Below, one piece after another: positions 989-1,028 of a DNA stretch of 5,162 nt. The position numbers and the translations under genes were made by a program. The notes under the pieces are model-generated. The model worked only from the letters and a program-made list of their open reading frames with translations, did not search any database and was not told the origin of the DNA. The stretch lies in the IMG/VR virus record IMGVR_UViG_2740892369_000030. The stretch is one strand, 5' to 3'. The stretch's first letter is position 1. Each line of letters starts with the position of its first letter. This stretch comes from a virus (lineage: Duplodnaviria > Heunggongvirae > Uroviricota > Caudoviricetes).

Positions 989-1028
989 TTACCCGTGCAG
1001 ATATCCGCACGAATATCCGCGCGGGTAA
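989..1028. promoter_or_regulatory. GC-rich nested dyad with tandem ATATCCGC repeats; candidate Ner binding site and/or leader hairpin
   Basis: TTACCCGTGC (989..998) and GCGCGGGTAA (1019..1028) are inverted, 9/10 complementary. An inner inverted pair CGTGC (994..998) / GCACG (1007..1011) and direct repeats ATATCCGC at 1001..1008 and 1013..1020 (12 bp apart) lie inside. Sits immediately upstream of the ner RBS. Confidence 0.35.

What the first reader, a model, noticed from the sequence alone, without database searches (positions are those of the whole stretch)
989..1028. Nested GC-rich dyads with tandem ATATCCGC repeats just upstream of ner
A 40-bp block contains outer inverted arms TTACCCGTGC / GCGCGGGTAA, inner arms CGTGC / GCACG and two direct ATATCCGC repeats 12 bp apart. 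It stands out from the AT-rich surroundings. It lies between the candidate early promoter and the ner start codon, so it could be the Ner operator (Mu Ner binds tandem repeats near the early promoter) or an RNA leader structure. It does not match the Mu Ner site as I recall it, so the specificity would be distinct.
Basis: partly seen in the sequence, partly recalled or inferred. Interest (0 to 1): 0.45.

Follow-up and report, generated by a model that had tools for sequence, protein, structure and literature searches.

The report
Predicted Ner operator of prophage Sp18
The 40-bp GC-rich dyad just upstream of ner in the Mu-like prophage Sp18 of E. coli O157:H7 is real and conserved, and is most likely the DNA site where the phage's Ner repressor sits on the early promoter; this is an ordinary kind of phage switch element with a recognition sequence that has not been described.

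Summary
The window is the left end of the Mu-like prophage Sp18 of E. coli O157:H7 Sakai (c, ner, A, B). The block at 989-1028 is a real 40-bp near-palindrome: 19-nt arms, 16/19 complementary, matched by 0 of 2000 shuffles. It is unique in the 38.8-kb prophage.

The same 53-nt architecture precedes every Sp18-type ner gene I found (37 distinct versions from Enterobacterales and a Pseudomonas phage). It consists of four 8-bp GGATAWCC-like elements at a 12-bp period in alternating orientation, followed by an almost invariant CTTTTTAGGATAG and the ner start.

A positionally conserved sigma-70-like promoter ends exactly at the block. The block therefore spans about -6 to +34 of the early promoter. 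The experimentally known Ner operators of Mu and D108 lie at the same place and are also dyads.

The block stays with the ner-A module when the c repressor and its AT-rich operator are swapped. No conserved RNA fold exists on the ner strand.

Best reading is a Ner operator with a new specificity (confidence about 0.7), inferred and not demonstrated. Linkage cannot separate Ner from the transposase N-terminal domain as the binder. It is a new member of a known kind, of modest interest.

The parts
948..978 (.). Context: a perfect 12-bp inverted repeat ACCAAAAATACC-N7-GGTATTTTTGGT enclosing the -35. It is the probable c-repressor operator and is not part of the block.
   Evidence: I3. Its sequence changes with the c helix-turn-helix type across relatives (partial r 0.67, p 0.0005).
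960..965 (+). Predicted early promoter Pe -35 (TTGATT)
   Evidence: The best sigma-70-like pair falls in the same register in 41 of 45 distinct upstream sequences, nearly always with a 17-bp spacer. D108 has TTGATT at the equivalent place.
983..988 (+). Predicted Pe -10 (CATTAT). Its last base abuts the block, so the predicted transcript start is about 995-997.
   Evidence: the -10 ends at alignment column 0 or -1 in 41 of 45 sequences. The start site is inferred, not mapped.
989..994 (.). Element H0 (TTACCC; family consensus TTAYCC), the visible half of an 8-bp element, lying between -10 and +1
   Evidence: Columns 1-6 of alignment A2 are highly conserved.
999..1006 (.). Element H1 (AGATATCC; family consensus rGATAACC)
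   Evidence: Columns 11-18 of A2
1011..1018 (.). Element H2 (GAATATCC; family consensus GGTTATCC)
   Evidence: Columns 23-30 of A2
1023..1030 (.). Element H3 (GGGTAACT; family consensus GGrTAACt)
   Evidence: Columns 35-42 of A2
989..1028 (.). The whole 40-bp near-palindrome, the proposed Ner operator
   Evidence: A 41-nt weight matrix scores 53.7 bits here, and the next independent site in the 38.9-kb prophage scores 0.8.
1029..1041 (+). CTTTTTAGAATAG (family consensus CTTTTTAGGATAG), the most conserved stretch of the region. It may be a fifth element (GGATAG, 13 bp from H3) and/or a U-rich ribosome-loading region. Its role is unresolved.
   Evidence: Columns 41-53 of A2 are nearly invariant. 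There is no further copy in the window beyond chance.
1041..1046 (+). Shine-Dalgarno sequence GAGGAA of ner
   Evidence: Read directly from the sequence
1049..1297 (+). ner (ECs_4944), an 82-aa Ner-family HTH protein and the proposed binder
   Evidence: Pfam HTH_35 E 2.5e-19. PDB 1NER/1NEQ Mu Ner E 9e-9 and 7F9H EnrR E 1.6e-8. Annotation.

Best explanation
The block is the operator of the Sp18 Ner repressor.

It consists of four GGATAWCC-like 8-bp elements centred 12 bp apart in alternating orientation, which together form a 40-bp dyad. It begins immediately after the -10 hexamer of the early promoter Pe and extends to about +34.

Ner is made from the first gene of the early transcript. It would load onto these elements as monomers or closely packed pairs that oligomerise on the DNA, as reported for D108 Ner and seen for the Ner-family protein EnrR. 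From there it would occlude the -10/+1 region and block RNA polymerase. That would turn down early (ner-A-B) transcription and autoregulate ner. An effect on leftward c transcription is possible but is not located here.

What is shown: the dyad, its conservation, its fixed register relative to a promoter-like pair, its inheritance with the ner-A module and not with c, and the absence of a conserved + strand RNA fold.

What is inferred: the transcript start, binding by Ner, the stoichiometry, and repression.
For: 1. Position. D108's known operator CCGTGAGCTAC-N8-GTAGCTCACGG lies at 996-1025, just after a TTGATT-17-TACATT promoter and 24 bp before ner. Mu's sites AGCTAGCTAAGT / ACTTAGTTAAAT lie at 1029-1058, just after Pe (the identity of these sites is from my own knowledge of Tolias & DuBow 1986 and Kukolj et al. 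1989). The Sp18 block occupies the same slot, 20 bp before ner.

2. Conservation. All 25 genome loci, and all viral loci with at least about 52% Ner identity that include upstream DNA, carry the architecture. There are 37 distinct gap-free versions.

3. Promoter register. The -10 ends at column 0 or -1 in 41 of 45 sequences.

4. Module linkage. Ner and c-HTH distances are uncorrelated (r -0.04). The AT-rich inverted repeat follows c (partial r 0.67), while the block follows Ner given c (0.34-0.47, p<=0.004). E. coli relatives L033 and L038 have identical Ner and the same block, but a c protein only 45% identical (measured for L033) and a different operator. Homology with L033 starts exactly at the -10. 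L007/L046 versus L013/L045, and L016 versus L054 versus L061, show the same pattern.

5. Specificity. Homologs with Asp at the first recognition-helix position (KDSLK) have GATAA-type arrays. Those with other residues (Mu TT, D108 ST, L097, L103, L106) have other dyads. That Asp aligns with EnrR Arg47, a base-contacting residue in the EnrR-DNA crystal structure (PMC9023278).

6. Half-sites rather than a stem. Information content is high in the four elements and low between them. Spacer pairs are only 32-51% Watson-Crick. L094 has the two inner elements as direct repeats, which cannot form a hairpin.

7. The site is unique in the prophage.
Against: - There is no binding or transcript-start evidence. 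No paper on Sp18 regulation was found.
- Block divergence tracks the first 75 aa of the transposase (partial r 0.50, p 0.0005) better than it tracks Ner (0.14, p 0.12) when both are aligned. Linkage alone therefore cannot assign the binder.
- GATATC versus GATAAC elements do not correlate with any change in the Ner recognition helix.
- Symmetric covariation about the global centre and better folding of the - strand would also fit a hairpin.
- The block does not match the Mu or D108 consensus.
Confidence: 0.7

Rival explanations
1. The block, alone or with CTTTTTAGGATAG, is bound by the N-terminal winged-helix (I-alpha) domain of the Sp18 transposase. It would be the counterpart of Mu's internal activation sequence (transposition enhancer), either instead of or in addition to being the Ner operator.
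For: Sp18 A has the Mu DNA-binding domain PF02316 at residues 6-143, whereas Sp18 c has no such domain. Unlike in Mu, the enhancer therefore cannot simply be the c operators. Swapping c leaves the A N-terminus and the block unchanged. Block divergence tracks the A N-terminus best (partial r 0.50). GATATC-type elements occur in Sp18 and in L076, which share an A N-terminal motif (GMPATTKGIRQALQR) but have Ner proteins only 53% identical. The 8-mer CTTTTTAG is shared with the rightmost Mu O2 site.
Against: Known I-alpha/c sites in Mu are non-palindromic direct repeats, not alternating dyads (own knowledge). No further CTTTTTAG-type copies occur in the window beyond chance. L106 has an Sp18-like A wing (GSKATEYHISILP) but a Mu-like Ner helix and a Mu-like ACTTAGT dyad upstream of ner. 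The A correlation may only reflect A being a better clock for the shared ner-A module.
Confidence: 0.1
2. The dyad acts as an RNA hairpin. It could be a leader structure or attenuator of the early transcript (hairpin followed by U5), or a 5' stem-loop of a leftward transcript toward c.
For: The 40-mer folds at -20.4 kcal/mol (+ strand) and -24.9 kcal/mol (- strand), with z -4.6 and -5.45. A run of T follows it. Symmetric covariation exceeds the shuffles (81.1% versus 76.4% paired; 39 versus 15.7 double-change cells). RNAalifold gives a - strand consensus of -11.9 kcal/mol, and A.C mismatches (G.U on the - strand) outnumber G.T by 98 to 47.
Against: RNAalifold finds no consensus structure on the + strand, with or without the left arm. 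The predicted Pe start lies inside the left arm, so the outer stem is not in the early RNA. Spacer pairs are mostly unpaired. L094 has direct rather than inverted inner elements. There is no Rfam match, and the terminator scan did not call it. No leftward promoter to the right of the block could be identified. The strand asymmetry rests on 9 versus 3 columns (one-sided p about 0.07).
Confidence: 0.08
3. The block is an additional operator for the c repressor, analogous to Mu O3.
For: It lies in the c-ner regulatory region. In Mu the repressor has three operators there.
Against: The block is unchanged when c and the AT-rich operator are replaced (L033/L038, L007 versus L013, L016 versus L054 versus L061). 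Its sequence is unrelated to the CCAAAAATACC repeats.
Confidence: 0.03
4. The block is a host-factor site, for example an array of DnaA boxes (TTATCCGCA versus TTATCCACA).
For: TTATCC is the core of the DnaA box. Several family members are one mismatch from TTATNCACA.
Against: The positions that would be the conserved CACA of a DnaA box (columns 31-33) are among the least conserved in the block (0.45-0.68 bits). Sp18 itself has TTACCC and ATATCC.
Confidence: 0.03

Closest known systems
Ner operator of phage D108 (two perfect 11-bp inverted repeats separated by 8 bp)
   Same: Dyad-symmetric and more GC-rich than its upstream surroundings. It starts a few bp after the early-promoter -10/+1 and lies 20-24 bp upstream of the ner start. 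The cognate gene encodes a Ner-family HTH protein. D108 even has the same TTGATT -35.
   Different: The sequence is unrelated (GAGCTAC versus GATAWC). Sp18 has four 8-bp elements at a 12-bp period over 40 bp, rather than two 11-bp arms over 30 bp. The recognition helix is SRDSLKSVL versus SSSTLKNAL. Binding is shown for D108 and only inferred here.
Ner binding sites of phage Mu (two 12-bp sites, consensus ANPyTAPuCTAAGT, 6 bp apart)
   Same: The same position relative to Pe, and an inverted arrangement. The expected function is the same: turn-down of early transcription.
   Different: No sequence match. Ner is 40% identical. The Mu site lies 40 bp from the ner start.
EnrR-DNA complex (PDB 7F9H/7F9I; a Ner-family protein of Edwardsiella piscicida)
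   Same: The same fold family (PF13693; E 1.6e-8). It is monomeric, and two molecules pack closely on a short palindrome (CTATAG within ATATCTATAGATAT). This gives a structural precedent for compact 6-8-bp elements such as GATATC.
   Different: EnrR is a domesticated global AT-rich binder that antagonises H-NS. Its base-contacting Arg47 and Arg55 are Asp39 and Thr47 in Sp18 Ner. It has no periodic four-element array.
Mu operators O1-O3 / internal activation sequence
   Same: They lie in the same c-ner intergenic region. CTTTTTAG is shared with one O2 repeat.
   Different: Those are direct repeats bound by c and by the homologous MuA I-alpha domain. In Sp18, c is not homologous to A, and the block does not follow c.

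Membership tests
Ner operator of transposable (Mu-like) phages | Lies between the early promoter -10/+1 and the ner start codon | tested here: met
   The promoter-like pair ends at 988, the block is 989-1028, and the ner ATG is at 1049. The register is conserved in 41 of 45 relatives. Mu and D108 have the same layout. The transcript start was not mapped.
Ner operator of transposable (Mu-like) phages | Dyad-symmetric arrangement of repeated recognition elements | tested here: met
   16/19 complementary arms, matched by 0 of 2000 shuffles. Four conserved elements in alternating orientation.
Ner operator of transposable (Mu-like) phages | The adjacent gene encodes a Ner-family (HTH_35) protein | tested here: met
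   Pfam PF13693 E 2.5e-19. PDB 1NER E 9e-9.
Ner operator of transposable (Mu-like) phages | Travels with ner, not with the c repressor, in mosaic relatives | tested here: met
   However, it cannot be separated from the transposase gene, which is also in that module.
Ner operator of transposable (Mu-like) phages | Sequence matches the Mu (ANPyTAPuCTAAGT) or D108 (CCGTGAGCTAC) site | tested here: not met
   No similarity. This is expected if the specificity differs, and Mu and D108 also differ from each other.
Ner operator of transposable (Mu-like) phages | Specifically bound by Ner, with repression of Pe (and Pc) | not testable with these tools
   Needs EMSA or footprinting and reporter assays.
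Intrinsic terminator / leader attenuator | A conserved RNA stem-loop on the transcribed strand directly followed by a U-tract | tested here: not met
   The stem and T5 are present in Sp18. However, there is no + strand consensus fold, the left arm is upstream of the predicted +1, and the terminator scan did not call it.
Rfam RNA families | Match to a curated covariance model | tested here: not met
   Only chance-level hits (E>3) in 800-1350.
c-repressor operator | Co-varies with the repressor DNA-binding domain | tested here: not met
   The block is identical when the c proteins are 45% identical. The AT-rich inverted repeat is what co-varies with c.
DnaA box array | 9-mer TTATNCACA with conserved CACA | tested here: not met
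   Columns 31-33 are among the least conserved.
Mu-type transposition enhancer (IAS) | Cluster of sites bound by the transposase I-alpha domain, coinciding with repressor operators | tested here: inconclusive
   The I-alpha domain is present in A and absent from c. The block tracks the A N-terminus, but its architecture is unlike the Mu IAS repeats, and L106 argues against this reading. Binding is not testable here.

The most novel reading that the evidence does not exclude
In Sp18-type transposable phages the c repressor is not homologous to the transposase N-terminal domain. The conserved block plus CTTTTTAGGATAG could therefore serve both as Ner operator and as the transposition enhancer recognised by the transposase. 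Ner, rather than c, would then be the protein that competes with the transposase at the enhancer. That would be a rewiring of the Mu immunity-transposition coupling.
Probability: 0.07. Interest if true: 0.6.

Novelty: new member of a known kind. Interest (0 to 1): 0.3.

Why it matters
Sp18-type Mu-like prophages are common in Shiga-toxin-producing E. coli: 186 of 5426 complete genomes carry most of this window. They also occur across Enterobacterales. Sp18 is mobile: different genomes have it at different sites, and a recent study reported its apparent excision (PMC13502914).

A defined operator architecture gives a concrete handle on the switch, namely four GGATAWCC elements at a 12-bp period abutting the Pe -10. 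It could be used for reporter design, for predicting heteroimmunity groups (the c module and the ner module reassort at the -10), and for studying how small monomeric Ner-family proteins assemble on DNA. Only one co-crystal structure (EnrR) turned up in the solved-structure search.

It does not change any general concept of phage regulation.

Tried and rejected
- Rfam scan of 800-1350 gave only chance hits.
- The promoter/terminator consensus scan called neither Pe nor the block. A dedicated comparative scan then placed Pe.
- RNAalifold on predicted leaders and on the whole block gave no + strand structure.
- Reading the block as two tandem 18-bp palindromes (GTTATC-N6-GATAAC) shows no covariation beyond column composition, whereas the global dyad does. 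However, the 2-nt insertions in distant relatives (L074, L077, L100) fall between the two inner elements. The grouping of elements therefore stays open.
- The DnaA-box reading was rejected on the conservation profile.
- A search for extra copies found none in the whole prophage and none of CTTTTTAGRATAG in the window beyond chance.
- A scan of viral contigs for the inner palindrome alone (GATAACC-N4-GGTTATCC) gave 108 stretches. Only 6 have ner downstream, and all 6 show the full architecture. The rest are unrelated or chance, so the inner palindrome alone is not diagnostic. One array (L183) is a coding tandem repeat.
- L091 and L092, which looked like ner genes without a block, are ner genes truncated by an IS5-like insertion.
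- Literature searches for Sp18 regulation, ECs4943/4944, and the Ner operator papers found nothing usable. The Mu and D108 operator identities therefore rest on my own knowledge plus direct reading of the sequences.
- I could not locate a leftward c promoter.

Full report
**What the window is.** The 5162-bp window is identical to the left end of prophage Sp18, the Mu-like prophage of E. coli O157:H7 Sakai. The same element sits at many different insertion sites in other Shiga-toxin-producing strains. The prophage starts at about window 78. The genes are:
- a c-type repressor on the minus strand (858..328, 176 aa);
- ner (1049..1297, 82 aa; Pfam HTH_35 E 2.5e-19);
- transposase A (1299..3389), which has the Mu DNA-binding, rve and Mu-transposase C-terminal domains;
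- B (3460..4392).

Ner matches the solved structures of Mu Ner (1NER/1NEQ) and of the Ner-family protein EnrR (7F9H/7F9I).

**The observation.** The block 989-1028 reads TTACCCGTGCAGATATCCGCACGAATATCCGCGCGGGTAA. The repeat finder joins them into one 40-bp near-palindrome with 19-nt arms, 16/19 complementary, around a 2-nt centre.
- None of 2000 dinucleotide shuffles of the 190-bp c-ner spacer reached 16/19.
- GC peaks at 0.575, against 0.18-0.35 in the AT-rich DNA on its upstream side.
- A weight matrix of the block scores 53.7 bits here, and the next independent site in the whole 38.9-kb prophage scores 0.8.
Most other Sp18 copies have A.

**Surroundings.**
- Upstream lies a perfect 12-bp inverted repeat, ACCAAAAATACC-N7-GGTATTTTTGGT (948-978). 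It encloses TTGATT (960-965). Seventeen bp further on is CATTAT (983-988), whose last base abuts the block.
- Across 45 distinct relatives, the best sigma-70-like pair is in exactly this register in 41. The spacer is nearly always 17 bp and the -10 ends at the base before the block or one earlier.
- The predicted early-transcript start is therefore about 995-997, inside the left arm. The block spans about -6 to +34.
- Downstream come CTTTTTAGAATAG, the Shine-Dalgarno sequence GAGGAA, and the ner ATG.

**Relatives.** Using an alignment of Ner homologs I collected 25 loci from bacterial genomes (Serratia, Kluyvera, Pantoea, Erwinia, Sodalis, Cedecea, Leminorella and others) and 80 from viral contigs. 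I added Yersinia phage Tongde and Pseudomonas phage VW-6B.
- Every locus with an Sp18-type ner and available upstream DNA carries the same architecture. It is alignable without gaps over 53 nt in 37 distinct versions.
- The consensus is TTAYCC GTAGA GATAACC NNNN GGTTATCC GCRCG GRTAAC TTTTTAGGATAG.
- Information content is high in four elements (columns 1-6, 11-18, 23-30, 35-42) and low between them.
- Read as 8-mers related to GGATAWCC, their centres fall at columns 2.5, 14.5, 26.5 and 38.5, a 12-bp period with alternating orientation. A fifth, weaker GGATAG lies 13 bp further on.
- In Sp18 the inner elements are GATATC, which is self-complementary.

**Who binds it: c or the ner module?** The c proteins of these phages form several helix-turn-helix types, and the AT-rich inverted repeat around the -35 changes with them. 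For example...TLNSYF goes with GGTATTTTT, and ...TLQNYY goes with GTTCTTTTT.
- Distances between c HTH regions and between Ner proteins are uncorrelated (r -0.04), so the two modules reassort.
- The AT-rich repeat follows c (partial r 0.67, p 0.0005). The block follows Ner once c is controlled for (partial r 0.34-0.47, p <= 0.004).
- The clearest cases are E. coli relatives L033 and L038. They have identical Ner and the same block. The c protein of L033 is only 45% identical to Sp18's, and both loci carry a different operator. Homology with L033 begins exactly at the -10 hexamer, window about 984.
- L007/L046 versus L013/L045, and L016 versus L054 versus L061, show the same thing.
- The block is therefore not a c operator. 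The AT-rich repeat is.

**Comparison with known Ner operators.** Reading the reference genomes directly gives the following.
- D108 has CCGTGAGCTAC-N8-GTAGCTCACGG at 996-1025. It lies just after TTGATT-17-TACATT and 24 bp before ner.
- Mu has AGCTAGCTAAGT and its inverted copy ACTTAGTTAAAT at 1029-1058, just after Pe.
- That these are the footprinted Ner sites is from my own knowledge (Tolias & DuBow 1986; Kukolj et al. 1989). I could not retrieve those papers.
- A paper held in the library confirms only that Ner regulates the early operon and that a 61-bp D108 operator was studied (PMC10434027).
- The Sp18 block is thus the positional and architectural counterpart, with an unrelated sequence.

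The recognition helices differ accordingly: Sp18 YSRDSLKSVLRT, Mu YAPTTLANALER, D108 LSSSTLKNALDK.
- Across more distant homologs, those with Asp at the first helix position (KDSLK, PDTLK, KDTLR) have GATAA-type arrays upstream of ner (L073, L074, L077, L094, L100, L102, L108).
- Those with other residues have other dyads, for example L106 with a Mu-like helix and a Mu-like ACTTAGT dyad, and L097 and L103.
- That Asp aligns with Arg47 of EnrR, which makes a base-specific contact in the EnrR-DNA crystal structure.
- In that structure two monomers pack closely on the short palindrome CTATAG, within ATATCTATAGATAT (PMC9023278).
- This gives a structural precedent for compact 6-8-bp elements and for assembly of monomers on DNA. 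Whether each Sp18 element takes one or two monomers is unknown.

**DNA site or RNA hairpin?** The 40-mer folds well as RNA on either strand (-20.4 and -24.9 kcal/mol; z -4.6 and -5.45), and a T5 run follows it.

Symmetric covariation about the global centre exceeds column shuffles: 81.1% versus 76.4% paired, 39 versus 15.7 double-change cells, 0 of 500 shuffles. Reading the block as two tandem palindromes shows none. A hairpin or a symmetric protein assembly would both predict this covariation.

Against a + strand RNA element:
- RNAalifold finds no consensus structure, either for predicted leaders or for the whole block.
- The spacer pairs between elements are Watson-Crick in only 32-51% of sequences.
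- The left arm lies upstream of the predicted start.
- L094 has its two inner elements as direct repeats, which cannot pair.

On the minus strand there is a weak consensus fold (-11.9 kcal/mol), and A.C mismatches (G.U on that strand) outnumber G.T by 98 to 47. This rests on 9 versus 3 columns, and I could find no leftward promoter to the right of the block. I keep an RNA role as a low-probability rival.

**The rival I could not dismiss.** Sp18 A carries the Mu I-alpha-type DNA-binding domain, but Sp18 c does not. The Mu arrangement, in which c and A compete for the same operator/enhancer repeats, therefore cannot hold here.
- The target of the A N-terminal domain must lie in DNA that stays with A when c is swapped. 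The block is such DNA.
- With properly aligned proteins, block divergence tracks the first 75 aa of A (partial r 0.50, p 0.0005) better than it tracks Ner (0.14, p 0.12).
- This may only mean that A is a better clock for the shared ner-A module.
- The alternating-dyad architecture is unlike the Mu enhancer repeats.
- L106 combines an Sp18-like A wing with a Mu-like Ner and a Mu-like dyad.
- Even so, linkage alone cannot assign the binder.

**Other readings rejected.** DnaA boxes fail because the would-be CACA positions are among the least conserved. There is no Rfam family, and the terminator scan made no call. The inner palindrome alone is not diagnostic: of 108 exact matches in viral contigs only 6 precede ner, and those 6 have the full architecture.

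**Verdict.** It rests on position, conservation, module linkage and family precedent, not on any binding data. It is a new member of a known kind of element. Its interest is modest (0.3), with a small chance of something more interesting if the site also serves the transposase.

Noticed in passing
window 95-103, 190-198, 242-250 (+); 3436-3444 (-): TTTGATACY occurs four times against 0.04 expected. The first three lie 17, 112 and 164 nt from the prophage end (window 78, TGTA...), which mirrors the spacing of the Mu L1-L3 transposase end-binding sites. The fourth lies, inverted, in the A-B intergenic gap.
   Followed up: partly
window 3399-3426: A dyad AATAACC-N14-GGTTATT lies just after the A stop codon and next to the fourth TTTGATACC copy. 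It could be a terminator or another protein site.
   Followed up: no
window 948-978 and the related repeat CCAAAATACC at 941-950: A perfect 12-bp inverted repeat encloses the -35 of the early promoter. Its sequence co-varies with the c repressor helix-turn-helix type across relatives, so it is the probable c operator.
   Followed up: yes
window about 984; loci L033, L038: E. coli relatives with a heterologous c (45% identity, measured for L033) and a different operator. L033 becomes 100% identical to Sp18 exactly at the Pe -10 hexamer. This marks a sharp recombination junction between an immunity module and the ner-A module.
   Followed up: yes
window 997: G in this window and in Sakai, but A in most other Sp18 copies.
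   Followed up: partly
window 1029-1041; L004 (Mu) 1019-1026: CTTTTTAGGATAG is the most conserved stretch of the whole regulatory region across 37 versions, more so than the operator elements. Its first 8 bases are identical to the start of the rightmost repressor/transposase repeat in Mu O2. The reason for this conservation is unexplained.
   Followed up: partly
window 1052-1066 (ner codons 2-6): The N-terminal tail of Ner (xRKED) and its DNA (AAAGAA / AGAGAA) are conserved, although the equivalent tail is N-terminal to the first helix in Mu Ner. In EnrR the N-terminal extension contacts the minor groove (PMC9023278). It could be a DNA-binding arm or a DNA-level signal.
   Followed up: no
window 1-77: The flanking DNA outside the prophage matches lambdoid Stx-phage and IS-associated sequence in many genomes. 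Sp18 here is inserted in a different site from Sakai (sorM), consistent with active transposition.
   Followed up: no
L091 1546-1713; L092 1515-1685: ner homologs truncated at the 5' end by an IS5-like transposase insertion, which removes the operator region.
   Followed up: yes
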